64,000 nucleotides of DNA from positions 111,929 through 175,928 of the forward strand of contig SCQK01000013.1 in assembly GCA_004321885.1 (NCBI GenBank). The letters run 5' to 3'. The stretch comes from Patescibacteria group bacterium. GTDB taxonomy: Bacteria > Patescibacteriota > Patescibacteriia > Magasanikbacterales > GWA2-37-8. This document shows, piece by piece, positions 134-21,980 of this stretch. A program made the position numbers and the translations under genes. Each line of letters opens with the position of its first letter. Position 1 is the stretch's first letter. The notes under the pieces are model-generated. The model worked only from the letters and a program-made list of their open reading frames with translations. It searched no databases and was not told the DNA's origin.

Positions 134-769
134 ATGCGAACTTCCCTTCCATTTACCCATCGCCAGCTCTCCCCTTCGCCGCCTTCGCGGCATGAGAAAG
201 GGGAGAGGGGGACGACTGCAATATTGCCAGCTATATTGCTCATCGCGTTTGGCATTGCGGCGAGATTTTTGCCCCATCCGGCGAACTTTACTCCCATCGG
301 CGCCATTGCTATTTTTGGCGGACTGTATCTGCCCAAAAAACTTTCTGTTTGGCTGCCTCTCTCGGCCATGCTTATCAGCGATATTTTTATCGGCTTTTAT
401 TCATTGCCGATTATGGCCAGCGTGTACGTCGGCTTTATGTTCGCCAATCTGCTATCCTTGACAGCGCGGGGCAAACTCGCATATACAAAAACCGCCTTTG
501 GGCGGTTTGGGACTATTGCCGGCGCCACGGCGCTAAGTTCAGCCATTTTTTACCTCTTGACAAACGCGGCGGTTTGGGCATTCGGCTCTATGTATCCGCA
601 CAATTTCACCGGCCTTTTGGAATCATACTACCTGGCTCTCCCCTTCTTCCGAAACAGCCTGGCGGGCGACGTTTTCTTCACTTTCGTTTTAGTAGGCGGG
701 ATGGAGTTGCTAAAACATACGTTAAGGGATTCCTCCGCTCTCCGCCGGCTGGCGAATCGATCGGAATGA
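134..769 (+). CDS. polytopic membrane protein (ECF-transporter S-component-like), start uncertain; a TTG near 224 is possible
   Basis: Five to six hydrophobic segments in the ORF translation. The N-terminal 30 aa are charged and low-complexity and probably not translated. This is the only plus-strand gene at the left edge. Confidence 0.45.
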   Translation: MRTSLPFTHRQLSPSPPSRHEKGERGTTAILPAILLIAFGIAARFLPHPANFTPIGAIAIFGGLYLPKKLSVWLPLSAMLISDIFIGFYSLPIMASVYVGFMFANLLSLTARGKLAYTKTAFGRFGTIAGATALSSAIFYLLTNAAVWAFGSMYPHNFTGLLESYYLALPFFRNSLAGDVFFTFVLVGGMELLKHTLRDSSALRRLANRSE

Positions 770-771
770 CA

Positions 772-2190
772 TTATCCATACGGTAACTCCTCTGGCTCTG
801 GCGGTTCTTCTTTTCTCTCTTCTTCCACAGCAGGCCCGACAGGCAAATCCAAATCAATGGGCAAGCCAAACGGCGGCTCCGAGCGCTTGGTGGCGGATTT
901 CTGCAACAACGGGGTCTTCACACTCGGCAACGGGAAGTGCCACAAAGTGGCCAGCTCTTCTATGTTCAAAATATAGGGCGTGCCGTACACTTTAATCTTG
1001 CGCTTCTTAAACGCGTTCACGAATTTGCGTTTTTTCCAAACCACTATAAGCTTCTTAAACGCGTAGTAGGCCTTGGTCACCACGTAGGGCGTGAGCTGGT
1101 TGCGGTTGACCATGCTAAATTGCTTTAGCGAGCCGACATAGCCGTCCAAGCACCGCGAGGGATTGAAAACTTCCTTGCGCGCCACATACAGGGCGCGTAT
1201 TTTTGTCTTAAAGCCGACCTTGGCGATTTTGTCTTCCACGGCCTGCACCGTATTTTTCAGGCCCGGCGGCAATTCGCTCACTTTGCCGGCCACGACCTCT
1301 TCCCTTTTGACTTCTTTTTCCTTTGGTTCAAAGTTCCAATTCCACACGTCCATGAGCATCTCAAACAGCTTGGCCGGCAAACCCAAAATGCCGCCCAGAA
1401 TGCCGGCCTTGGCCGGGGCTTTTTTTTGCGCGATGATTTCCTTTACCAGACTGATGCCGGCGGCCTGCCAGGTATCGGCCACTGGCTCAATCACGATTTG
1501 CGTGAAAAAATTCTCGCCCGCCCCGAGTCGCGTGAAATTTTCCAGCACCGCGGCCATAGGGTCGTTGAACATGGCGTCTTTGGTCACGCTGTGCTCAAAC
1601 TCGGGATAGGTGCGGATGGGGTAGGCATTGTGGCCGGCTAAAGTGAATTCCACGCCGAAGACGTCTTCCGCGTCATTGGGAAATTTTGTCGGAATGACGC
1701 CGACATAATCCTCTATTTCCGTGATTTCGGCCGTCGGGTATTGGGCGTAAATGGCCGCTTCCACCACGTCGCGAAATTCTTGCTCGGTATAAATTAAAAA
1801 TTGAATATAGCCGGCCATGGAAATAATCTCAAAGCTGAACCACTTTTGTTTTTTGCCCAGCCAAAATTTTTCGCCGACATTGGGCCCGACCAGCGCGCCC
1901 GACAGGTGCGAAAAAAGCTGTTCCACGGCCTTGGGGCTTTGAATCACCTCTTGCGGAATCTCAATGGCCAGCACGAGCCATTTCCATTTGCTTGTGTAAA
2001 GCCCCTGCCGATACCACAGCCACAGCTCCTGCCCCATGTAGAAAAAAATTAAGAGCAAAATAGCCCAGCCGATGATGCCAAACAGGGCCAAAATTATTTT
2101 TCCGCTGGACCACGTAAGCAATTGGTCCCAAAACGAAAAATTTAGATTGAATGAGACTCCGCCAAAAGGCGACTCCATGCCAGTGGGCAT
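772..2190 (-). CDS. hypothetical membrane-anchored protein (472 aa)
   Basis: Long ORF with an N-terminal TM helix (ILALFGIIGWAILLLIFFYM) and a basic K-rich C-terminal region. It lies immediately downstream of secF on the same strand. No family recognised. Confidence 0.5.
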   Translation of the reverse strand: MPTGMESPFGGVSFNLNFSFWDQLLTWSSGKIILALFGIIGWAILLLIFFYMGQELWLWYRQGLYTSKWKWLVLAIEIPQEVIQSPKAVEQLFSHLSGALVGPNVGEKFWLGKKQKWFSFEIISMAGYIQFLIYTEQEFRDVVEAAIYAQYPTAEITEIEDYVGVIPTKFPNDAEDVFGVEFTLAGHNAYPIRTYPEFEHSVTKDAMFNDPMAAVLENFTRLGAGENFFTQIVIEPVADTWQAAGISLVKEIIAQKKAPAKAGILGGILGLPAKLFEMLMDVWNWNFEPKEKEVKREEVVAGKVSELPPGLKNTVQAVEDKIAKVGFKTKIRALYVARKEVFNPSRCLDGYVGSLKQFSMVNRNQLTPYVVTKAYYAFKKLIVVWKKRKFVNAFKKRKIKVYGTPYILNIEELATLWHFPLPSVKTPLLQKSATKRSEPPFGLPIDLDLPVGPAVEEERKEEPPEPEELPYG

Positions 2191-2378: not shown

Positions 2379-3293
2379 TCACACAACCGCCCGCCTTTGC
2401 CATTTTTCCGCCAGCACCAGCAGAGGGGCGGCGATAAAAATGGAAGAATACGCCCCGCTGGCAAAACCAATAAGCAGGGCCAGGGCGAAGTAATGGATAG
2501 AAGCGCCGCCAAAGAGATAAAGGGCGATAAGGGCGAACAAAGTGGTAACGGTCGTGTTGATAGAGCGCATTAAAGTCTGGTTCAGACCGTTGTTAACCAC
2601 CTCGGCAAAGTCTTCGTTGCGCCGGCGCAATAAATTTTCCCTGATGCGGTCGTAGACCACGATGGTGTCGTGCACGGAAAAACCCAGCACGGTTAAGAGA
2701 GCCACCACGAAAGCAATATCCACCTCCACGCCCCAGCCATGCCCCAAAACCGAAAAAATACCCATCACCAAAAAGACGTCATGCACCACCGCGATTATGG
2801 CCAACAGGCCGTATTTCCAGCTGGCCACGGGCCGCGACACCTTGCGAAAGGCATAGGCGATATACAATATAATGCCCAGGTTGACGAAGATAATGGCCCA
2901 CACCGCCCGCGTGCGCAATTGCTTGCTTACGGCCGAGCCGATTGTTTCAAAACTAATTTCCTTCACCGTGTTTTCTTTGGTCTGAAAATTTTGCGTCAAG
3001 CGCTTTAGCGCCTCCTGATGTTTTTCTTCGCTCAAAAATTCGGTGCGGATAATAATGCTGTCTTCGCCGACGTTTTGAACTTGAACATTTTTCAAATCCA
3101 CTTCGGCAAAAACTTTTTGCACATCAGCGGCCGGCGGCCGGTTGCGGCTAAACGATATTTCCAACAGAGAACCGCCGGTAAAGTCAATGCCCGGCTTTAG
3201 CCCCCACATAAATATCAAAACAAAGGCGGCCACAGTTACCAGTCCGCTGAAACTAAGCAGTACCTTGGAATACTTTATGAATGGTATGGTCAT
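2379..3293 (-). CDS. secF: protein translocase subunit SecF
   Basis: 304 aa with a six-TM SecF topology and conserved SecD/F motifs (LKPGIDFTGGS, GFSVHDTIVVYDRIREN). Directly downstream of secD. Confidence 0.9.
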   Translation of the reverse strand: MTIPFIKYSKVLLSFSGLVTVAAFVLIFMWGLKPGIDFTGGSLLEISFSRNRPPAADVQKVFAEVDLKNVQVQNVGEDSIIIRTEFLSEEKHQEALKRLTQNFQTKENTVKEISFETIGSAVSKQLRTRAVWAIIFVNLGIILYIAYAFRKVSRPVASWKYGLLAIIAVVHDVFLVMGIFSVLGHGWGVEVDIAFVVALLTVLGFSVHDTIVVYDRIRENLLRRRNEDFAEVVNNGLNQTLMRSINTTVTTLFALIALYLFGGASIHYFALALLIGFASGAYSSIFIAAPLLVLAEKWQRRAVV

Positions 3294-3302
3294 AGTGAAA
3301 AA

Positions 3303-5405
3303 TTATGTATGGGATTGCTTCCCGCCAGAGGCGGGCAGGCGCTCTTCGCTCGCAATGACATTTTTTTTATGCCCCAAAAACATCCAATTGCCATACTCAT
3401 TGAACCAGCGGAAAACAATGCGGATATTGATGCGGGTAACGGTAATGGCCGTAAACATGGAGACCAACGTGCCGATGGCCAACGTGACGGCAAAGCCCTG
3501 CACAAACCCGGTGCCAAACCATATAAGGAATCCGCAACTGATAAGGGTGGTGATATTGCTGTCGCGAATGGACGGCCAGGCGCGCGCGAACGACTCCTCG
3601 GCCGCCGACAGCAAACTGCGGCCATTGCGTAATTCTTCTTTCATGCGCTCAAACACCAGCACATTGGCGTCTACGGCCATACCGATAGACAAAATAAAGC
3701 CGGCAATGCCCGACAAGGTTAAAGTTACTCCGATAATCTTAAAGATGGCCAAACTTAAAAGGGCGTAGACGAGCAGAGAAACATTGGCCAACAAGCCGGG
3801 AAAGCGATAATAGCCAATCATGAAAAGCAAAACTAAAATCAAACCAACAATGCCGGCGAAAAAACTTTTACGCAGATACTCGGAACCCAAAGTGGCGTCC
3901 ACTTTCTGCTGGCTGATGAGGTCTACGGCCACGGGCAAAGCGCCGGCGTTGAGGCGCTGGGACAAAAGCCGCGCTTCGCCGAGCGTGAAACTGCCCGAGA
4001 TGACGGCCGAGCCGCTGGTGATGGCTTCGTTCACGCGCGGAATGCTAATGGGCTCACCGTCCAAAAATATGGCCACGTTCTTGCCCACATTGCGCGTGGT
4101 GATATCGCCGAACAATTTTGTGCCTTCTTCGTTGAATTGCAGATTGACCTGCACTTGTCCGGACTGATTATCCTGGGTTACCTCGGCGCGCTTGAGCTGC
4201 TTGCCCGACAAGCCCGAGCTTTTCCATTCCTCGGCCGGCGGCACGACATCGGAAGCCTGTTTAGTCTTCACGTACACGCGGGCCACCTCATATTCCCTGG
4301 ACGGCTTTTCATCTTTTTTGTAAATAATGTGAAAACCGAATTTTGTTTCCACCGCATTGGACACAGCGCCCTTGGGCATCGCGCCCGCCGCCTCTTCAAA
4401 CTCCGGCACCATTTGGCCCTTCTTAAACCAGCCCAGCTCTTCGCCGCGCACTTCCAATTTTTTATCCGGAGAATATTGCTGTACCAACTGGGCAAAATTG
4501 GCGGGCGACGCCTGGGCTTTTATTTCACCGGCTCTTTGGCGGGCCTGGTCTTTGTTCAATTTGCTTTCACACCCTTCGGCGCCGGCATAACAAACCAACA
4601 AGTGCGACGCGTTTATCATTTTTTCGCCGTCGCGGCCGGAGAGCCGTTTTACCACGTTCAAGCCGTCAAAACTTTTCACCAGGGTTTTGCCCGCCTGGCC
4701 GTCTTTGGCTTTCTCGGCCCAAGCAAAAATTTCCGGATAAATTTCTTTGGTAATAAATCCCAGATTGCCGCCCTTGTCTTTGCTGGCCTGGTCTTCGGAA
4801 TATTGGGCCGCGATTTTGCCGAAATCGGCCCCGGGTTTTAGGGCCGCGGTTAGAGCTGTTTTGGCTTTTTTATCGGCCGCGCTGTTAAAAACGTCCAGGT
4901 CTTTTTTTTCTTGGGGTGTCAAATCGCGGGCCGGGTCGTGATTTTCTTCCTTAAATTCCAGTATCGGAGTTTCGCCAATCATTTTGATGGCCTGATTGAC
5001 ATCGGTAACGCCGGGCAATTCCACAATCACGCGATAATCGCCGCCGACCTTGGTGGTTTGCACCAATGGCTCGGCCACGCCCAGGCCCCCGCGCACGCGC
5101 CGCTCTATCACGTCGCGCACGCCTTCCACGGCGTCGCCGCGGTCGCCTTCGGGAATGGTTTCTGTTTTGGCCTGATAAACCAAATGCGCGCCGCCCTGCA
5201 AATCCAGGCCCAGATTAAAGCCCTTATCCGGCAAGCGGGGCAAACCGATGTTGGCCGCGTTGTTGAGCCAGTCTATGCCGCGGTTGGCGAACGCCGGCAA
5301 AACAATAAGCAGGGTGGCAATGGCCAAAGCGACCACGCCGGCCGCGTGCCATTTTAATTTTTTCGCCGACGAAACCTTGTTGGAAATTTTTACTGCCATA
5401 AACAC
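3303..5405 (-). CDS. secD: protein translocase subunit SecD carrying two parvulin-type PPIase domains in the periplasmic P1 head
   Basis: 700 aa. N-terminal TM plus the P1 head (GLDLQGGAHLVYQA) and a C-terminal six-TM SecD core. Two rotamase-like segments lie in between: a weaker one (FGKIAAQYSEDQASKDKGGNLGFITKEIYPEIF) and a clear one (ASHLLVCYAG...ELGWFKKGQMVPEFEEAA...KFGFHIIYK). Confidence 0.85.
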   Translation of the reverse strand: MFMAVKISNKVSSAKKLKWHAAGVVALAIATLLIVLPAFANRGIDWLNNAANIGLPRLPDKGFNLGLDLQGGAHLVYQAKTETIPEGDRGDAVEGVRDVIERRVRGGLGVAEPLVQTTKVGGDYRVIVELPGVTDVNQAIKMIGETPILEFKEENHDPARDLTPQEKKDLDVFNSAADKKAKTALTAALKPGADFGKIAAQYSEDQASKDKGGNLGFITKEIYPEIFAWAEKAKDGQAGKTLVKSFDGLNVVKRLSGRDGEKMINASHLLVCYAGAEGCESKLNKDQARQRAGEIKAQASPANFAQLVQQYSPDKKLEVRGEELGWFKKGQMVPEFEEAAGAMPKGAVSNAVETKFGFHIIYKKDEKPSREYEVARVYVKTKQASDVVPPAEEWKSSGLSGKQLKRAEVTQDNQSGQVQVNLQFNEEGTKLFGDITTRNVGKNVAIFLDGEPISIPRVNEAITSGSAVISGSFTLGEARLLSQRLNAGALPVAVDLISQQKVDATLGSEYLRKSFFAGIVGLILVLLFMIGYYRFPGLLANVSLLVYALLSLAIFKIIGVTLTLSGIAGFILSIGMAVDANVLVFERMKEELRNGRSLLSAAEESFARAWPSIRDSNITTLISCGFLIWFGTGFVQGFAVTLAIGTLVSMFTAITVTRINIRIVFRWFNEYGNWMFLGHKKNVIASEERLPASGGKQSHT

Positions 5406-5609: not shown

Positions 5610-5912
5610 TTACGATTCGTCCAAAATTATCTTTTCTTTGAATCCTCCCCTGTCTTCGGCCTTGGTGGCGCGTATTTTTTCCAGCTCAACGGCGTCATAA
5701 CCCTTGAAATCGCGCATGGAATTGAGAACTTCGTAAAGGTCGCCCAAATCATGTGGCGATTCCGAGGAAAAAAACTCTCCCAGCTCCTCCAGCAGTTTTT
5801 CCTTCAACTTTTTCCAGTATTCCTCACTGCCGGCGATATGGTACACCGCCTGTCCGCCTTTGGCTTTGATGATTTCGGGAATCTTGTCCCGCACGAGTTT
5901 ATTGTATTTCAT
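5610..5912 (-). CDS. MazG-like nucleotide pyrophosphohydrolase (small all-alpha NTP-PPase)
   Basis: 100 aa, MKYNKLVRDKIPEIIKAKG...EELGEF...DLGDLYEVL. This matches the MazG/HisE-type NTP-PPase signature, including the EExxE-like acidic motif. Confidence 0.65.
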   Translation of the reverse strand: MKYNKLVRDKIPEIIKAKGGQAVYHIAGSEEYWKKLKEKLLEELGEFFSSESPHDLGDLYEVLNSMRDFKGYDAVELEKIRATKAEDRGGFKEKIILDES

Positions 5913-6329: not shown

Positions 6330-6596
6330 CCGTCAGAGAGTGCTCGAAGGCCCTACTCCGGAAGACGTCCCGGAGCCAGGAGGAGAAGCCGTCCCACCAT
6401 TCCATGCCGCCGGCCACAGTCCGGCCGCGAGGTGCGCGCGCTCCGCTTCCAAAGGGGCATCTCGAAAACTGTGCCGGGGTGGTTTGGCGTCTTTGCGCCA
6501 GATTGCACCCCACATGGACAGCGTCCTCCTACGGGGAGGACTATGGTTGCTTAGCGCCATCAACCCTCTCTGACGGCGCTTTTTTTTTATTTGTAT
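6330..6596 (+). ncRNA. GC-rich (~64%) structured element closed by an 11-bp terminal helix and followed by a U-run; class unknown
   Basis: gccgtcagagag at 6330-6341 pairs with ctctctgacggc at 6568-6579. There are internal hairpins such as gtcctcc-tacg-gggaggac, and a T9 run at 6588-6596. ORFs are open on both strands in all frames, as expected for non-coding GC-rich DNA. Confidence 0.3.
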
Positions 6597-6805
6597 TTCT
6601 TCAACAACTCATCTAATTTTTTCATGATTGGCGCGCGCCAGTCGTCAATCATTTGCGTCCTGATAAATTTTACCATTTTTTTGTCTTCCGCCGTCATCTT
6701 TTTACTCTCAAGTTCGTAAATTTTTCCCAAAATAAAATAATCTCTATCTTCCTTCAAAACATAACGTTTTTTGTCAATCGGACGAATTTTTGGTAATTTG
6801 TTCAT
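6587..6805 (-). CDS. hypothetical small protein (72 aa; start at MNKLPKIRP)
   Basis: AT-rich ORF. The N-terminal extension in the ORF track runs through the 6825-6912 palindromic element, so the internal Met is the likely start. Confidence 0.4.
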   Translation of the reverse strand: MNKLPKIRPIDKKRYVLKEDRDYFILGKIYELESKKMTAEDKKMVKFIRTQMIDDWRAPIMKKLDELLKKYK

Positions 6806-6824
6806 ACTACACAATTCGTTGTGG

Positions 6825-6912
6825 CAACAATCGTCATCCTGAACTTGTTTCAGGATCCCCACTGTCCAATTCGCCGACTCGCTCGATCGGAGATGCCGAA
6901 ACAAGTTCGGCA
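6825..6912. repeat. pair of palindromic hairpins (CCTGAAC-TTG-TTTCAGG and GCCGAA-CAAGT-TCGGC, ending CATGAC)
   Basis: Direct reading. A related hairpin ending ...TTCAGCATGACAT occurs at 7237-7275. Confidence 0.7.
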
Positions 6913-6937
6913 TGACAGTGACGCGGCTGGAAACTTA

Positions 6938-7231
6938 TCACTCCCATTCGTCGCTCAAGTCTTTCAAAGTGGGATTAAGTCCTTTTACTAAATTTATTTT
7001 CCACTGACGATGCCAATTTTTGATTTGTTTCTCTCTGTTAATTGCGTCACGTGGATCCAAAAAAACTTCGTAATAAACTAACTTTTTCAGATTATACTGT
7101 TTTGTAAATCCCTCATTGATTCCATTTTTATGTTCTTCAAGCCGACGTTCTAGATTGTTCGTTATACCTACATATAAAACCGTGTTGATGATGTTTGTTA
7201 AAATATACACATAAAATGTTTTCCCCTCCAT
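6938..7231 (-). CDS. GIY-YIG nuclease family protein (small stand-alone)
   Basis: 97 aa. MEGKTFYVYIL...VLYVGITNNLERRLEEHK gives GIY..YVG motifs plus the conserved R and E. AT-rich (~38% GC). Confidence 0.85.
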   Translation of the reverse strand: MEGKTFYVYILTNIINTVLYVGITNNLERRLEEHKNGINEGFTKQYNLKKLVYYEVFLDPRDAINREKQIKNWHRQWKINLVKGLNPTLKDLSDEWE

Positions 7232-7273: not shown

Positions 7274-10117
7274 TTACTGGCCGTGACAGCGCTTGTATTT
7301 CTTCCCGCTGCCGCAAGGGCAAGGGTCGTTGCGGCCCACCACTTTGCCGGCCTCGTCGCGCACTTTTTTCCCGGCCGGCGCGGCGCCGTTGTCGCTGGTC
7401 TTGCTGGCCCCGCTAAACATCAGATTCCCCGCCTGCATCACCGACGGCGCTATCTGTATTCCCAAATTTACTTTATAAACCAAATACACCACTTCTTTTT
7501 GAATGTAATTAAGCAGTTCGTTGAACATCCGGTAGGTTTCTTTTTTGTATTCCACCAGCGGGTCGTGCTGGGCATAGCCGCGCAGGCCAATGCCGGTGCG
7601 CAAATAATCCACGGCCACCAAATGTTCCACCCACAGATTGTCTATGGCGCGCAGCAATACTTGTTTTTCTATCTCGGCCATCATCTCGGGCGGGGCTTGT
7701 TTGACCAGCAGTTCCTCGTATTTATACTTGGCCGTTTCTATCAAAAATTCTATGAGTTGCGTCCTAATCGTAACATCATCAACCCGCCCGCCCACCGGCG
7801 GGGCGCCAAATTCTCCGATTTTTTTCTTTTCATCGTCAGACAGCGGGAAAATGGTCGTCATTGTTTCGGCAATTTCTTTCACATTCCAGTCACTGCGGTC
7901 TTCGGCGTTGGTATGGAACGAAACCACCTCTTCAATTTCCTGTTCTATCATTTCCAAAATCATGACGCGCAAATTTTTTACCCCCTCTTTCGTCTCCCCC
8001 TTATCAAGGGGGAGAGAAGCGGTGGACGTCTCCGCCATATCACGAGAGAGAGAAGCGGTTGATTCAAAAGCGCGCAATACCTCGCGCCGTTTGCCGTAAA
8101 TCACCTCGCGGTGCTTGTTGAGCACGTCATCGTACTCCAGCAAATGTTTGCGCGTGTCAAAATGCAAACCCTCCACTTTGCGCTGGGCGCTTTCTATAAT
8201 GCGCGTAATCATCCCCTGCTCTATGGGCATGTCATCTGGCACTTTAAGGGCGTTCATTACCCCGCGTATTCTGTCGCCGGCAAAAATACGCATCAGGTCG
8301 TCTTCGGTGGAAAGGAAAAATTGCGACTGCCCCGGGTCGCCCTGGCGCCCGCTGCGGCCGCGCAACTGGTTGTCTATACGCCGGCTCTCGTGGCGCTCGG
8401 TGCCCAGCACAAACAAACCGCCGGCCGCGCGCACGCGCCCGGCTTCTTCGGGTACAGGCGGATTACCGCCCAAAATTATATCCACTCCCCTGCCGGCCAT
8501 GTTGGTGGCCAGGGTCACGCGCCCGGGCTGGCCGGCCTGCGCGATTATCTCGCCCTCGCGCTCATGATTCTTGGCGTTTAGAATTTCATGCGCTATTCCC
8601 TCTCTTTGCAAATGCAAACTCAAGGCCTCGTTTTTCTCCACTGATACCGTGCCTATCAAAACCGGCTGGCCCTTGGCCTGTAATTCTTTTACCATCTGGG
8701 CGATGGCCTTGTGCTTGGCCTCTTCGGTTTTATAAATCCTGTCCGGAAAATTCGTGCGCTGGCTGGGTTTGTTCGGCGGAATTACCACCACTTCCAGTTT
8801 GTAAATTTTGCCGAACTCTTCGGCCTCGGTGACGGCCGTGCCGGTCATGCCCGACAGCTTTTCGTACAAACGGAAATAATTTTGAAAAGTAACCGTGGCC
8901 ATGGTCTGACTTTCATGTTGAATGACCACGTTTTCTTTGGCTTCTATGGCCTGATGCAAGCCCTCGCTATAGCGGCGGCCCGGCATTTTGCGGCCGGTAA
9001 ATTCGTCCACTATGAGCACCTCGCTGTTTTCCACGATATAGTCGCGGTCGCGCAAGAAAAGCGTCTGCGCCCGCAAAGCCTGCTCCACGTGGTGCACGGT
9101 ACGCACCCCGCCCTCGGCGTAAATATTGTCCACGCCCAGCCATTTTTCCATTTTAGCGATGCCGGCTTCGGAAAGCGTGGCCGAGCGCATTTTTTCGTCT
9201 ATGTTAAAGTCCTCGTTTTCTTTCAAGCGGCGCACCAGCTCGGCGAATTTGTAATACATGTCGGCCGCTTTTTCGGCCGGCGCGGAAATAATCAAGGGGG
9301 TGCGGGCTTCGTCTATTAAAATGGAGTCAACCTCGTCCACGATGGCGTAAAAAAACGGCCGCTGTACCATCTCGCTCAAATTTTGCACCATGTTGTCGCG
9401 CAAATAATCAAAGCCATATTCGTTGTTGGTGCCATAAGTGACGTCGCAGCCGTAGGCCTCTTGGCGCGAGCAGGGTTCCAAAAATTCCGTTTCCACTTTG
9501 TACATTCCTTTGGCGTCGCGTTCTTTGTCTGCTTCACTGCCCTCCTGTAACCCCACCCCCTGCCACCACACCAAAGATTTTGGTGTGGTGGCCTGCCCAT
9601 CCCCTAATAGGGGAGGGGTTTTTGCGTAGCGAAAAGAAACACCAAGCTGTTGAATCACGCCCACGCTCAATCCCAAAGCATCATATATCTGCCCCATCCA
9701 CACAGCGTCGCGTTTGGCCAAATAATCATTCACAGTCACCACGTGCACTCCCCTGCCGGCCAAGCCGTTTAGATACACAGGCAAGGTAGCCACCAGGGTT
9801 TTGCCCTCGCCAGTGCCCATCTCAGCGATAGCGCCGCTATGCAAAGCCATGCCGCCCTTTAGCTGGACGTCAAAATGGCGCATACCAGTCAAACGTTTTG
9901 ATGTTTCGCGCACCACGGCAAACGCCTCGGGCAAAATATCGTCCAGGGTGGCGCCGTCGGCCAAACGCTTTTTGAACTCATCGGTTTTGCCCCGCAACTG
10001 TTCCAAACTCAAAGACGCCATCCCGCTTTCCAGGGCATTGATTCTTTCCACGAGCGGCTTGTATCCGGCAATCACTTTCGCATTCGGGTCGCCAAAAATT
10101 CTGCTAAAAAAAGACAT
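7274..10117 (-). CDS. secA: preprotein translocase ATPase SecA (start at MSFFSRIFGD; the ORF track extends to 10228)
   Basis: N-terminus MSFFSRIFGDPNAKVIAGYKP. Walker A GEGKT, the DEAD-like motor, YGTNNEYGFDYLRDNM, and the C-terminal zinc finger CPCGSGKKYKRCHG. Two in-frame repeat-element insertions sit at 9563-9620 and 7978-8045. Confidence 0.95.
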   Translation of the reverse strand: MSFFSRIFGDPNAKVIAGYKPLVERINALESGMASLSLEQLRGKTDEFKKRLADGATLDDILPEAFAVVRETSKRLTGMRHFDVQLKGGMALHSGAIAEMGTGEGKTLVATLPVYLNGLAGRGVHVVTVNDYLAKRDAVWMGQIYDALGLSVGVIQQLGVSFRYAKTPPLLGDGQATTPKSLVWWQGVGLQEGSEADKERDAKGMYKVETEFLEPCSRQEAYGCDVTYGTNNEYGFDYLRDNMVQNLSEMVQRPFFYAIVDEVDSILIDEARTPLIISAPAEKAADMYYKFAELVRRLKENEDFNIDEKMRSATLSEAGIAKMEKWLGVDNIYAEGGVRTVHHVEQALRAQTLFLRDRDYIVENSEVLIVDEFTGRKMPGRRYSEGLHQAIEAKENVVIQHESQTMATVTFQNYFRLYEKLSGMTGTAVTEAEEFGKIYKLEVVVIPPNKPSQRTNFPDRIYKTEEAKHKAIAQMVKELQAKGQPVLIGTVSVEKNEALSLHLQREGIAHEILNAKNHEREGEIIAQAGQPGRVTLATNMAGRGVDIILGGNPPVPEEAGRVRAAGGLFVLGTERHESRRIDNQLRGRSGRQGDPGQSQFFLSTEDDLMRIFAGDRIRGVMNALKVPDDMPIEQGMITRIIESAQRKVEGLHFDTRKHLLEYDDVLNKHREVIYGKRREVLRAFESTASLSRDMAETSTASLPLDKGETKEGVKNLRVMILEMIEQEIEEVVSFHTNAEDRSDWNVKEIAETMTTIFPLSDDEKKKIGEFGAPPVGGRVDDVTIRTQLIEFLIETAKYKYEELLVKQAPPEMMAEIEKQVLLRAIDNLWVEHLVAVDYLRTGIGLRGYAQHDPLVEYKKETYRMFNELLNYIQKEVVYLVYKVNLGIQIAPSVMQAGNLMFSGASKTSDNGAAPAGKKVRDEAGKVVGRNDPCPCGSGKKYKRCHGQ
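9563..9620. repeat. CCACCACACCAAA...TTTGGTGTGGTGG hairpin plus CCCCTAATAGGGGAGGGG hairpin inserted in frame in secA (near-identical copy at 30724-30777)
   Basis: Encodes ...TPPLLGDGQATTPKSLVWWQGVGLQEG... in a SecA loop that is about 10 aa long in E. coli. Confidence 0.85.
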
Positions 10118-10248
10118 AGAACCACTAATCTTTTTCGCTAATCTCACTAATCGCGAACGCCGTAATTCTATCATATTTACGCGGAAAAGCAAGGGGTCGC
10201 GCGGTACACTGGCTCGCGCGATGAACAAATTTATGCTATAATATCCCC

Positions 10249-20382: not shown

Positions 20383-21306
20383 TTATAATACAATCTTATC
20401 TATTTGCTTGCTTAAATTTTTTCCACTAGACATAAACTTTAACGTTGCGAGCAAATCTGTTTGTGTTTGTGACAACTTTTCACCTAAAATTTTATCTTGT
20501 TTGAATTTACCCGTATTTTCGCCATTTTTTTTCCGTTCTTTAAATGTTTTTGAGACGAAATGTTTGCCTAATTCCTCCAATAACGTCGCTCTTTCATTCT
20601 CACAATTTTTTATCCTTTCTTCGGCCATTGAATTATAATCCTCCGAAATTTCTATTCCTAAATAATCGCAACCCAATAATTTAGCCGCAACTAAAGTTGA
20701 ACCGCTTCCCGAATATGGATCCAAGACAACCCCTCTTTTTCCGTCTAAAACCGAAAAAATTGCTCTTGCCGGCAGAATCATCGGAAATGGCGCGGGATGA
20801 TTCACACATCGTTCCGGTGGAAATCGCCAAATAGACGTTAGTAAAGCATGTCTTGAGGCCAACTCCTCACCAATTTTATTACCTGCGGGCTTATGCAACC
20901 AGTAAATACGTTCATCTACCTGCCAGAATCGCCATCCTCTGATATTGGCTGCTATCATTCTATCCCAAATTATTTCCTGGCGCATGGTCCAATCCGATTT
21001 AGATAGCCAACTAATTGGATGTATCATCTCACCTTTTTCCCATCTCACTTTATGATTATAAAAAAAAGATCCGCCCGGTTTCGTTATACGAAAAATTTCG
21101 TTTAAAATTTCAACCTGTTCGTTTTGATACTCTTCTTCATTCTTGGCGTCACTAATCGCATTATACAAAACATTTTTTACAAGCCAACCCTTATTTTTTT
21201 CCTTTTTATTATAAGGGGGTGAAGTAACGCAAACATCTATGATATTTGAATCAATCGTCTTTAAAATATCTAATGTATTACCTTGTAAAATCTGATTGAC
21301 TCTCAT
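20383..21306 (-). CDS. site-specific DNA methyltransferase (beta-class N6A/N4C, DPPY) with a ~70-aa C-terminal extension
   Basis: DVCVTSPPY (motif IV) precedes the AdoMet motif DPYSGSGSTLVAAKLLG, in beta-class order. AT-rich (~33% GC). The start overlaps the upstream ORF's stop (ATGA). Confidence 0.8.
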   Translation of the reverse strand: MRVNQILQGNTLDILKTIDSNIIDVCVTSPPYNKKEKNKGWLVKNVLYNAISDAKNEEEYQNEQVEILNEIFRITKPGGSFFYNHKVRWEKGEMIHPISWLSKSDWTMRQEIIWDRMIAANIRGWRFWQVDERIYWLHKPAGNKIGEELASRHALLTSIWRFPPERCVNHPAPFPMILPARAIFSVLDGKRGVVLDPYSGSGSTLVAAKLLGCDYLGIEISEDYNSMAEERIKNCENERATLLEELGKHFVSKTFKERKKNGENTGKFKQDKILGEKLSQTQTDLLATLKFMSSGKNLSKQIDKIVL

Positions 21307-21980
21307 TTTGCCTTTTCGGTTAAAAAATTATAAAATTTTCCGTTAAAATTGGAACGATTATCTTTTAGAGCCTTTACGTTAATATAAACGATTTTTAATT
21401 TTTTGCAATTTTGATAATCCCGAAAACCAAAGGAAGCACTTCGTAAAAAAGTCCCCTTCTCTCGACTCTTATTTTTGAATCTTTTCTTTAATTTAAGCTT
21501 CAAACAGCTTGTAAATCCCTCGTTACAAAAAGGAAATTCCAAAATATAAATTAATTGCCCGTCAATAAAACCGCTAACCAAAATGTTTAGATTTGCCGCT
21601 AAATCTTTTTTAAGCCGCTCCGGTGTATAATCAGTGAAATTGCCACCTCCGTCAAGTTTTCTCGGCGTCTTACGATTATTATTATCGCCGGTACAAATAT
21701 TTCTCGGTTTTGCTTCACAAGCAATAAATTCACCGCCGATACTCACACTTTGTTTAAAACCATTGTAACCTATTTTTTTGTTGCTGTGCGTATAGCCAGC
21801 CAAAGTTATCGTAATGAATTCTCTAATAGTAGAAGAATTTTTATCATTTATATAAATGGTAAGCAAATCATTAAATAACGATATTAAATCATCTTTAGAT
21901 TTATCCAACAAAAGAGCATTCAACTCCTTATGCGGTTTGGTGGCGTATGTAATTAAAATATCAGATAACGCGTTATTCAT
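21303..21980 (-). CDS. putative Type II restriction endonuclease, partner of the methyltransferase
   Basis: 225 aa, no recognisable family. Same AT-rich composition as the methyltransferase and translationally coupled to it. The pair is inserted between the housekeeping genes glyS and frr. Confidence 0.45.
   Translation of the reverse strand: MNNALSDILITYATKPHKELNALLLDKSKDDLISLFNDLLTIYINDKNSSTIREFITITLAGYTHSNKKIGYNGFKQSVSIGGEFIACEAKPRNICTGDNNNRKTPRKLDGGGNFTDYTPERLKKDLAANLNILVSGFIDGQLIYILEFPFCNEGFTSCLKLKLKKRFKNKSREKGTFLRSASFGFRDYQNCKKLKIVYINVKALKDNRSNFNGKFYNFLTEKAK

What the first reader, a model, noticed from the sequence alone, without database searches (positions are those of the whole stretch)
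3303..5405. SecD with two parvulin-type peptidyl-prolyl isomerase domains embedded in its periplasmic head
The 700-aa SecD has the normal N-terminal TM, P1 head start and C-terminal six-TM core. About 200 extra residues in the P1 region contain one clear rotamase signature (ASHLLV...GEELGWFKKGQMVPEFEEAA...KFGFHIIYK) and a weaker upstream one (FGKIAAQYSEDQASKDKGGNLGFITKEIYPEIF). Fusing a PrsA/PpiD-like foldase directly into the translocon-associated SecD would physically couple export to prolyl isomerisation. In other bacteria this coupling is achieved by separate PpiD/PrsA proteins.
Basis: partly seen in the sequence, partly recalled or inferred. Interest (0 to 1): 0.6.

Follow-up and report, generated by a model that had tools for sequence, protein, structure and literature searches.

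The report
SecD with built-in tandem parvulin foldase
In a large group of ultra-small (Patescibacteria/CPR) bacteria, the protein-export helper SecD carries two prolyl-isomerase-type domains (one apparently active, one degenerate) spliced in next to its mobile substrate-binding head, so the export motor and a folding helper are one protein where other bacteria use two.

Summary
Window 3303-5405 (minus strand) encodes a 700-aa SecD, and secF follows 9 nt downstream. About 200 extra residues sit between the last P1-base strand (res 149-154) and the first P1-head strand (res 394-400). They form two parvulin (PpiC-type) domains, and each passes Pfam's cutoff on its own. Copy 2 (res 262-366) is complete. 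Its His/acid/Thr/His network and hydrophobic pocket are invariant or nearly so in 200 homologues. Copy 1 (res 160-256) is degenerate: it lacks both histidines and its own first strand. AlphaFold2 secondary structure and covariation indicate that the strand after copy 2 (res ~370-380) completes copy 1's sheet, so copy 2 is nested in copy 1. The fusion is not an assembly artefact. At least 384 GTDB species-representative genomes carry it, and all 80 loci examined show the same domain order. Named records are Magasanik-, Falkow-, Uhr- and Buchananbacteria and "Parcubacteria group". Databases call these proteins plain "SecD", and I found no paper describing the fusion. The most likely function is a translocon-integrated foldase/holdase. 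It is a covalent counterpart of the reported SurA-SecDF P1-head contact, of PpiD/PrsA, and of the Mycoplasma PrsA-like "dome" on SecDF. Catalytic activity is untested. This is a new variant of a known kind, of moderate interest.

The parts
3303..5405 (-). secD ORF (700 aa from GTG 5405; likely true start ATG 5399, 698 aa), including stop codon
5274..5357 (-). TM1 (res ~17-44), the N-terminal membrane anchor that puts everything up to res ~505 on the extracytoplasmic side
   Evidence: Kyte-Doolittle window; AF2 helix 14-35; topology by homology to solved SecDF
4941..5228 (-). P1 base, N-terminal part (res 60-155): Sec_GG motif and SecD_1st domain, ending in the conserved 'PILEFKEEN' strand (149-154)
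4638..4928 (-). Parvulin copy 1 (res 160-256): degenerate. It has helices 1-4 and strands 2-4 but no first strand of its own. Asn250 sits at the second-His position. The YSED and GGxLG motifs are retained.
4308..4622 (-). Parvulin copy 2 (res 262-366): complete PpiC-type domain with H268, D314 (E/D in the family), T354, H359, L324/M332/F336 and the C272/C279 pair
4227..4307 (-). Return strand and linker (res 367-393): 'EYEVARVYVK' pairs antiparallel with copy 1's last strand and completes copy 1's sheet. The conserved D386-x2-PP-x3-W394 segment then leads into the head.
   Evidence: AF2 long strands 248-271 and 357-380; covariation pairs 250-376, 255-375, 258-371, 255-373, 257-370
3930..4226 (-). 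P1 head subdomain (res 394-492), the mobile preprotein-binding head of SecD
   Evidence: Pfam SecDF_P1_head 99 bits; alignment to 3AQP/3AQO
3408..3926 (-). Return strand to the base plus the C-terminal TM bundle (res 494-666), with invariant D579 in 'MAVDANV' (aligned to 'AAVDGNV' of T. thermophilus SecDF)
2379..3293 (-). secF (304 aa), 9 nt downstream of secD on the same strand; the partner subunit
   Evidence: Pfam SecD_SecF_C 201.6 bits; a separate TM-core ORF sits beside secD in 70 of 80 related loci

Best explanation
This is a genuine, conserved SecD variant in which a rigid two-lobed parvulin module is spliced into the first of the two connectors between the P1 base and the mobile P1 head. 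SHOWN: domain identities, the insertion site, a nested topology (copy 2 sits inside copy 1, joined by a continuous two-stranded ribbon), and an insert whose two ends pair with each other (152-154 with 394-396). Also shown: conservation of copy 2's active-site residues and loss of copy 1's, a co-varying cysteine pair, an intact SecD/SecF proton-path motif set, and presence of the fusion in hundreds of Patescibacteria species. INFERRED: SecD-SecF sits beside SecYEG, and the proton-driven head captures the emerging unfolded chain, as in canonical SecDF. The parvulin arm next to the head then receives that chain. Copy 2 catalyses prolyl cis/trans isomerisation. Copy 1 acts as a non-catalytic scaffold or peptide-binding platform, like SurA P1 or the PpiD parvulin. 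The P1 head would take the role that the NC/SurA_N chaperone domain plays in PrsA, SurA and PpiD. The result would be a membrane-anchored foldase/holdase at the translocon exit that needs no separate lipoprotein or anchor.
Against: No enzymatic or genetic data exist for any member. From my own knowledge, not checked here: PPIase activity is dispensable for the in vivo function of SurA and B. subtilis PrsA, and the PpiD parvulin is inactive, so conserved active-site residues might serve binding rather than catalysis. In this particular genome the copy-2 loop is atypical (YSPDKKLEVRGEELG versus consensus YSTEPGAxxRGGDLG). It includes G322E at a glycine found in 119/120 and 80/80 relatives, so this protein's activity could be reduced. 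The full-length model has pTM 0.38, so the position of the arm relative to the head, SecF and SecY is unknown. Coordinates could not be inspected.
Confidence: 0.6

Rival explanations
1. Holdase or extended substrate-binding surface only. The parvulin tandem enlarges the polypeptide-binding area of the P1 head, as SurA's parvulin domains or PpiD's inactive parvulin do. It prevents backsliding or aggregation, and prolyl isomerisation is irrelevant.
For: Copy 1 has already lost its catalytic residues yet stays conserved and well folded, so non-catalytic use of the fold is selected in this very protein. Copy 1's best solved-structure match is the peptide-binding SurA P1 domain. The window's own copy-2 loop is divergent, including G322E. 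From my own knowledge: chaperone function of SurA, PrsA and PpiD does not require PPIase activity.
Against: Copy 2's His-acid-Thr-His network and hydrophobic pocket are kept in essentially all 200 sequences, at 32-70% overall insert identity, while the same positions drifted freely in copy 1. This asymmetry is what selection on catalysis would produce.
Confidence: 0.25
2. Structural or regulatory module. The rigid ribbon-linked arm at the base-head hinge mainly tunes or gates the proton-driven swing of the P1 head. Alternatively, it docks another envelope component (cell wall, S-layer, pilus or host-contact machinery) in these episymbiotic, probably single-membrane cells.
For: The insertion is exactly in one of the two hinge connectors. 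The two copies are joined by a continuous two-stranded ribbon that would make the arm stiff. NCBIfam coordinates suggest that P1 size differs between lineages, for example query 395-399 corresponds to profile positions ~316-379 in some SecD/SecDF models.
Against: A purely mechanical role does not explain retention of a complete parvulin active site. No partner is conserved in the +-6 kb neighbourhood beyond secF.
Confidence: 0.1
3. Artefact: a chimeric or misassembled ORF, a gene-calling fusion of secD with a neighbouring prsA-like gene, or an ordinary P1 subdomain that only resembles a rotamase by chance.
For: None found. The sequence comes from a metagenome-assembled genome.
Confidence: 0.01

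Closest known systems
Canonical SecD/SecDF (T. thermophilus SecDF, PDB 3AQP/5XAP/5YHF; E. coli SecD in the holotranslocon, 5MG3)
   Same: TM1, P1 base, P1 head and C-terminal TM bundle. Also the GG motif, the conserved Asp in 'AVDxNV', and a partner SecF encoded next door. Best sequence and fold matches in the PDB.
   Different: About 200 extra residues forming two parvulin domains between the last base strand and the head. Thermus has 32 residues there. No solved SecD/SecDF found in these searches contains a PPIase domain.
SurA (E. coli, PDB 1M5Y) and its reported contact with SecDF
   Same: A tandem of two parvulin domains aligns collinearly with query 171-367 (E 2.8e-12). As I recall for SurA P1 (inactive) and P2 (active), the first copy here looks inactive and the second active. 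AlphaFold models place SurA P1 and P2 on the SecDF P1 head (PMC9987972), which are the two elements joined covalently here.
   Different: No SurA_N/C chaperone core (no such Pfam hit at E<=1). NF008038 SurA scores 66.6 bits against a cutoff of 394. The tandem is membrane-tethered within SecD rather than soluble. The copies are nested through a shared ribbon rather than joined by flexible linkers. These organisms are thought to lack an outer membrane or BAM to deliver to (my own knowledge).
PrsA foldase lipoproteins of Firmicutes (PDB 4WO7, 6VJ6, 6XD8) and the PrsA-like Mdp/Mpn444 'dome' on the M. pneumoniae Sec translocon
   Same: A membrane-anchored parvulin PPIase acts on proteins emerging from Sec in single-membrane bacteria. 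Copy 2's best single-domain sequence match is PrsA (49 bits). Mpn444 cross-links to SecD/SecDF.
   Different: PrsA and the Mdps are separate lipoproteins in which the parvulin is inserted in an NC chaperone domain. Here there is no lipobox or NC domain, the host domain is SecD P1, and the link is covalent. The best NCBIfam PrsA model (NF002827) scores 76.6 bits against a cutoff of 343.
PpiD-YfgM at SecYEG (E. coli; PDB 8ZHT, 2KGJ)
   Different: PpiD is a separate single-TM protein with SurA_N-like chaperone domains and one inactive parvulin. NF008054 scores 59.4 bits against a cutoff of 493.

Membership tests
SecD (TIGR01129 / Pfam SecD_1st + SecDF_P1_head + SecD_SecF_C) | Scores above the curated family cutoffs | tested here: met
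   TIGR01129 scores 374.1 bits against a cutoff of 244.4. SecD_1st 53 bits, P1_head 99.2, SecD_SecF_C 44.6 and Sec_GG 27.7, all above their Pfam cutoffs.
SecD (TIGR01129 / Pfam SecD_1st + SecDF_P1_head + SecD_SecF_C) | TM1, large extracytoplasmic P1 and C-terminal TM bundle, with the conserved proton-path Asp | tested here: met
   Hydrophobic segments at 17-44 and 510-657. Aligns to 3AQP over P1 and the TMs. D579 in 'MAVDANV' is invariant in 45/45 sequences. That the Thermus Asp in 'AAVDGNV' is essential is recalled from the literature, not tested here.
SecD (TIGR01129 / Pfam SecD_1st + SecDF_P1_head + SecD_SecF_C) | Partner SecF encoded adjacently or fused | tested here: met
   secF at 2379-3293, 9 nt downstream. 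A separate TM-core ORF is present in 70/80 related loci and fused SecDF in 4/80.
SecD (TIGR01129 / Pfam SecD_1st + SecDF_P1_head + SecD_SecF_C) | PMF-dependent stimulation of translocation | not testable with these tools
   Needs a biochemical or genetic assay.
Parvulin / PpiC-type PPIase (PF00639, PF13616): copy 2 (res 262-366) | HMM score above the gathering cutoff | tested here: met
   Rotamase_3 76.2 bits, Rotamase 73.6 and Rotamase_2 34.5, against cutoffs of 22.5, 21.7 and 27.
Parvulin / PpiC-type PPIase (PF00639, PF13616): copy 2 (res 262-366) | Parvulin fold (four-stranded sheet with four helices) | tested here: met
Parvulin / PpiC-type PPIase (PF00639, PF13616): copy 2 (res 262-366) | Conserved H-bond network (Cys/Asp - His - His - Thr/Ser; Pin1 C113-H59-H157-T152) and hydrophobic proline pocket (Pin1 L122, M130, F134) | tested here: met
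   H268, E/D314, T/S354, H359, L324, M332 and F336 are conserved in 77-80 of 80 and about 117-120 of 120 sequences. The mapping to Pin1 numbering is by my own alignment from memory of the Pin1 sequence. Caveat: this window's protein has G322E in the GGDLG turn.
Parvulin / PpiC-type PPIase (PF00639, PF13616): copy 2 (res 262-366) | Measurable prolyl cis/trans isomerase activity | not testable with these tools
   Needs an enzyme assay.
Parvulin / PpiC-type PPIase: copy 1 (res 160-256 plus strand ~370-380) | HMM score above the gathering cutoff | tested here: met
   Rotamase_3 44.6 bits and Rotamase 40.8 bits, but only profile positions 35-111 of 116 are matched.
Parvulin / PpiC-type PPIase: copy 1 (res 160-256 plus strand ~370-380) | Complete contiguous parvulin fold | tested here: inconclusive
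Parvulin / PpiC-type PPIase: copy 1 (res 160-256 plus strand ~370-380) | Catalytic His pair | tested here: not met
   The second-His position is Asn250 (family N101/S19; across 80 species N30, E15, S5, D5, V5, T4, H4 and others). The position opposite it on the return strand is I/V.
PrsA foldase (NCBIfam NF002827 / NF002846) | Family score above cutoff; lipoprotein with the parvulin inserted in an NC chaperone domain | tested here: not met
   76.6 and 75.3 bits against cutoffs of 343 and 361, with matches confined to the parvulin region. No SurA_N-type Pfam hit at E<=1.
SurA (NF008038) | Family score above cutoff; N-terminal chaperone core plus P1-P2 plus C-terminal strand | tested here: not met
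   66.6 bits against a cutoff of 394. Only the P1-P2 tandem aligns (query 171-367). No SurA_N domain.
PpiD (NF008054) | Family score above cutoff | tested here: not met
   59.4 bits against a cutoff of 493.

The most novel reading that the evidence does not exclude
The fusion makes SecDF an energy-coupled extracytoplasmic folding machine. The stiff, ribbon-linked parvulin arm is spliced into the base-head hinge, so the proton-driven F-form/I-form swing of the P1 head would mechanically cycle the PPIase/holdase between substrate capture at the SecY exit and release. That would be PMF-powered chaperoning in a compartment without ATP. If so, it would also serve as natural 'Rosetta-stone' evidence that parvulin chaperones (SurA, PrsA, PpiD) work directly on the SecDF P1 head in bacteria generally.
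Probability: 0.15. Interest if true: 0.8.

Novelty: new variant of a known kind. Interest (0 to 1): 0.55.

Why it matters
How proteins leaving SecYEG are handed to folding helpers on the ATP-free side of the membrane is still debated. The evidence so far is non-covalent and partly modelled: PpiD-YfgM at SecYEG, SurA on the SecDF P1 head, and PrsA-like domes on Mycoplasma SecDF. A conserved natural fusion of a SurA-like parvulin tandem right beside the SecD P1 head, in hundreds of species, is independent genomic (Rosetta-stone-type) support that these two modules work together. It also offers a single-chain, stoichiometrically fixed system for structural and biochemical study of translocation-coupled folding. 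For Patescibacteria, which have minimal genomes and depend heavily on surface and secreted proteins, it suggests how envelope proteostasis is economised. For annotation, hundreds of proteins labelled 'SecD' carry an unannotated foldase module.

Tried and rejected
(1) A compensated frameshift as the cause of the odd copy-2 loop in this genome: the other two frames are closed or nonsense, so rejected. (2) A second parvulin gene or a second SecD/SecF in the 64-kb window: none. No extra parvulin ORFs within +-6 kb of secD in 80 related loci. This does not answer whether these genomes have free PrsA-like genes elsewhere, because whole genomes could not be scanned. (3) The small 'P1-head + parvulin' proteins (P0213, P0216) as independent evidence for a head-parvulin partnership: only 4 clusters exist, and their next-best relatives are the Patescibacteria SecD fusions themselves. 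They are probably a spin-off, so I do not count them as independent. (4) Origin of the tandem by capture of a SurA-like P1-P2 pair versus internal duplication: copy 1 scores slightly better against SurA P1 and copy 2 against SurA P2, but the differences are 3-4 bits, so this is unresolved. (5) The nearest free-standing relatives of the insert are 2-3x tandem-parvulin proteins and ~650-700-aa Bacteroidota 'SurA' proteins, and none is specifically CPR by name. Names for P0303, P0305 and P0306 were not available. (6) AFDB fold search for UniProt organisms: the library was unavailable. (7) Five literature searches found no description of a SecD-parvulin fusion. Subscription-only papers are not covered. 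(8) Foldseek on the full-length model only recovers SecDF, RND pumps and SurA at low TM-scores because the model is multi-domain and flexible, so it says nothing about the arm's position.
Full report
OBSERVATION. The ORF at window 3303-5405 (minus strand) is real: 700 aa from a GTG start. The identical NCBI protein (P0001, 'protein translocase subunit SecD [Patescibacteria group bacterium]') is 698 aa, which matches the ATG at 5399. All residue numbers below use the 700-aa ORF. A 304-aa SecF (2379-3293) follows 9 nt downstream on the same strand, and SecA lies about 2 kb upstream (7274-10228). Pfam finds SecD_1st (94-155), Rotamase_3 (253-364; E 2e-32; two stretches), SecDF_P1_head (397-492) and SecD_SecF_C (494-656). 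NCBIfam TIGR01129 (secD) scores 374 bits against a cutoff of 244. Scanned separately, the upstream segment still passes Pfam's cutoff (Rotamase_3 44.6 bits, E 2.4e-11) but matches only profile positions 35-111. The downstream segment scores 76 bits over almost the full profile.

WHERE THE INSERT SITS. Against T. thermophilus SecDF (3AQP), query 62-152 aligns with Tt 32-116 and query 387-658 with Tt 149-419. The protein therefore has 234 residues where Thermus has 32. In the AlphaFold2 model the P1 base ends with strand 149-154 ('LEFKEE'), and the head begins with strand 394-400. In the insert-only model, residues 152-154 and 394-396 form short strands at the two ends of the insert. The module is thus a self-contained excursion spliced into the first of the two base-to-head connectors, which is the hinge region. 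It is not inside the head fold. TM1 (about 17-44) precedes it and the TM bundle (about 510-657) follows. By homology with solved SecDF, the insert is therefore extracytoplasmic.

THE TWO COPIES ARE NOT EQUIVALENT. I examined 120 close homologues (61-70% identity) and 80 species representatives (35-57% identity in the insert). Copy 2 keeps H268 and H359 in every sequence. It keeps the acidic residue E/D314 in 120/120 and 79/80, T/S354 in 80/80, F336 in 80/80, M332 in 77/80 and L324 in 80/80. These correspond to the Cys/Asp-His-His-Thr network and the proline pocket of Pin1/Par14-type parvulins; that mapping is my own and relies on established knowledge of those enzymes. Copy 1 has Asn250 at the second-His position (N, E, S, D, V and others across species; His in only 4/80). 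It has no first-strand His, and in some lineages it shows indels and motif loss. An invariant cysteine pair (C272/C279) in copy 2 is either fully present (69 sequences) or fully absent (11), never single. It is one of the strongest covarying pairs. This fits a disulfide on the oxidising side of the membrane.

NESTED TOPOLOGY. Copy 1 lacks its own first strand. DSSP on both models shows two unusually long strands, 248-271 and 357-380. I ran an MI-APC covariation analysis on 213 fusion sequences (Neff about 170). Pairs 250-376, 255-375, 258-371, 255-373 and 257-370 rank among the top 13 of 30,876 pairs. All lie on one antiparallel register that continues into copy 2's canonical first-strand/last-strand pairing (263-367, 265-364). 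Five of the top 25 pairs fall in the predicted band (hypergeometric p about 7e-8; related sequences are not independent, so this figure is indicative only). The simplest reading is that the strand after copy 2 ('EYEVARVYVK', about 370-380) is copy 1's missing first strand. Copy 2 would then be nested within copy 1, with the two lobes joined by a continuous two-stranded ribbon that would make a stiff arm. This is inferred, because I could not inspect coordinates.

NOT AN ARTEFACT, AND WIDESPREAD. All 120 best database hits carry the Rotamase Pfams together with the SecD Pfams. Those with names are Candidatus Magasanikbacteria or Patescibacteria, and every one is labelled simply 'SecD'. An exhaustive HMMER search with the insert alone found 23 of the top 150 50%-identity representatives to be SecDs with the same N-d1-d2-head-TM order, down to about 32% insert identity. 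The remainder are free-standing 2-3x tandem-parvulin proteins and Bacteroidota SurA-like proteins. All 80 loci kept cover both SecD junctions and have the same order: 73 complete, 4 single-chain SecDF and 3 cut by contig ends. In 70 of them a separate TM-core ORF, taken as SecF, lies alongside. Record names include Magasanik-, Falkow-, Uhr-, Buchanan- and one Nomurabacteria, plus 'Parcubacteria/Patescibacteria group'. NCBI treats these as separate candidate phyla within the Parcubacteria group. The identical insertion site and the shared peculiarities (copy 1 without its first strand, the return strand, the conserved D386/PP/W394 linker) argue for a single old fusion event. SecD itself looks functional: D579 in 'MAVDANV' is invariant, and the window's SecF has the 'HDTIVVYDRIREN' and 'LMRSINTT' motifs that align with the Thermus SecF half.

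MECHANISM (best explanation, confidence about 0.6 for the functional part). Shown: the architecture, the location, the asymmetric conservation and the breadth. Inferred: the rest, as follows. SecD-SecF works as in other bacteria, with the proton-driven P1 head capturing the chain emerging from SecYEG. The parvulin arm attached at the head's hinge receives that chain. Copy 2 isomerises prolyl bonds, and copy 1 serves as scaffold or binding platform. The P1 head plays the part that the NC/SurA_N domain plays in PrsA, SurA and PpiD. The literature makes this plausible. SurA binds the holotranslocon, and all AlphaFold models put its P1 and P2 parvulin domains on the SecDF P1 head (PMC9987972). PrsA-like PPIase lipoproteins form a dome over the Sec translocon/SecDF in M. 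pneumoniae (10.1101/2025.04.25.650208 and 10.1101/2024.09.05.611430). PpiD-YfgM sits at SecYEG (PMC9643414). The main rival (about 0.25) is a holdase-only role, since PPIase activity is dispensable in several of these chaperones (my own knowledge). Against that rival, catalytic residues are strictly retained in copy 2 while they decayed in copy 1. A structural or regulatory role at the hinge (about 0.1) cannot be excluded. An artefact is excluded.

CAVEAT SPECIFIC TO THIS WINDOW. The copy-2 loop reads YSPDKKLEVRGEELG where the family consensus is YSTEPGAxxRGGDLG. Gly322, present in 119/120 and 80/80 relatives, is Glu here. This is not a frameshift, and AF2 confidence dips in that loop. This particular protein may therefore be a less active or atypical member.

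NOVELTY. The sequences and their Pfam hits are in public databases, but they are annotated as plain SecD. Five full-text searches found no description of a SecD-parvulin fusion. Subscription-only literature was not searchable. I rate it a new variant of a known kind: SecD carrying an integrated foldase module. It is not categorically new, because translocon-associated parvulin chaperones are well known as separate proteins. Interest is moderate (0.55). A Sec specialist would find it a useful natural 'Rosetta stone' and a convenient single-chain system, but not a shock.

LIMITS. There is no activity data. The position of the arm relative to the head, SecF and SecY is unknown. Whole genomes could not be scanned for free PrsA-like genes, so 'replaces PrsA/PpiD' is untested. 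The taxonomic boundary of the fusion within Patescibacteria is not defined. The AFDB library was unavailable.

Noticed in passing
L081:3947-4807 (also L082, L083, L084); proteins P0216, P0213, P0295, P0296: A tiny family (4 clusters, about 280 aa) of free-standing proteins has a SecDF_P1_head domain followed by one parvulin and no SecD membrane core. In three of the four contigs (L081-L083) it lies immediately downstream of a Trypsin_2 (HtrA-like) protease gene; in L081, L082 and L084 it lies upstream of a DUF3800 gene. The nearest relatives are the Patescibacteria SecD fusions (59-60% identity over about 37% of the query), so it is probably a spin-off of the fusion with the domain order reversed.
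   Followed up: partly
window 4437-4472 (-), residues 312-323: This genome's copy-2 loop (YSPDKKLEVRGEELG) departs from the family consensus (YSTEPGAxxRGGDLG). It includes G322E at a glycine conserved in 199 of 200 relatives. It is not a frameshift, and AF2 confidence drops here.
   Followed up: partly
window 4569-4592 (-), residues C272 and C279: The cysteine pair between copy 2's first strand and first helix is invariant in the close family. Across 80 species it is either both present (69) or both absent (11). It ranks fifth in covariation. It is probably a disulfide.
   Followed up: yes
window 5399-5405 (-): The longest ORF starts at GTG 5405, but the NCBI protein and the family consensus ('MAxK...') fit the ATG at 5399, giving 698 aa.
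   Followed up: yes
window 20383-21980 (-): A low-GC island (0.36 against about 0.50 elsewhere) holds an N6_N4 DNA methylase (307 aa) and an adjacent 225-aa ORF without a Pfam hit. It is possibly an acquired restriction-modification pair.
   Followed up: partly
window 6938-7231 (-): A 97-aa stand-alone GIY-YIG domain protein lies between secD and secA. Two small ORFs without Pfam hits lie nearby at 5610-5912 and 6587-6913.
   Followed up: no
window 772-2190 (-) and 134-769 (+): Just downstream of secF is a 472-aa ORF with an N-terminal hydrophobic segment and no Pfam family. Next to it is a DUF6580 membrane protein.
   Followed up: no
L001, L004, L005, L009, L013 and many other loci; L018: Many TPA_asm MAG records that encode this Patescibacteria-type SecD fusion are titled 'uncultured Gammaproteobacteria bacterium', and one is titled 'Candidatus Binatia'. 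L001 is the best match to the window (57% in the insert). These labels look like placeholders or mis-assignments. I did not verify this further.
   Followed up: no
P0071 (996 aa), P0086 (990 aa); 4 of 80 loci: In a minority of lineages the parvulin-bearing SecD is additionally fused to SecF as a single-chain SecDF.
   Followed up: partly
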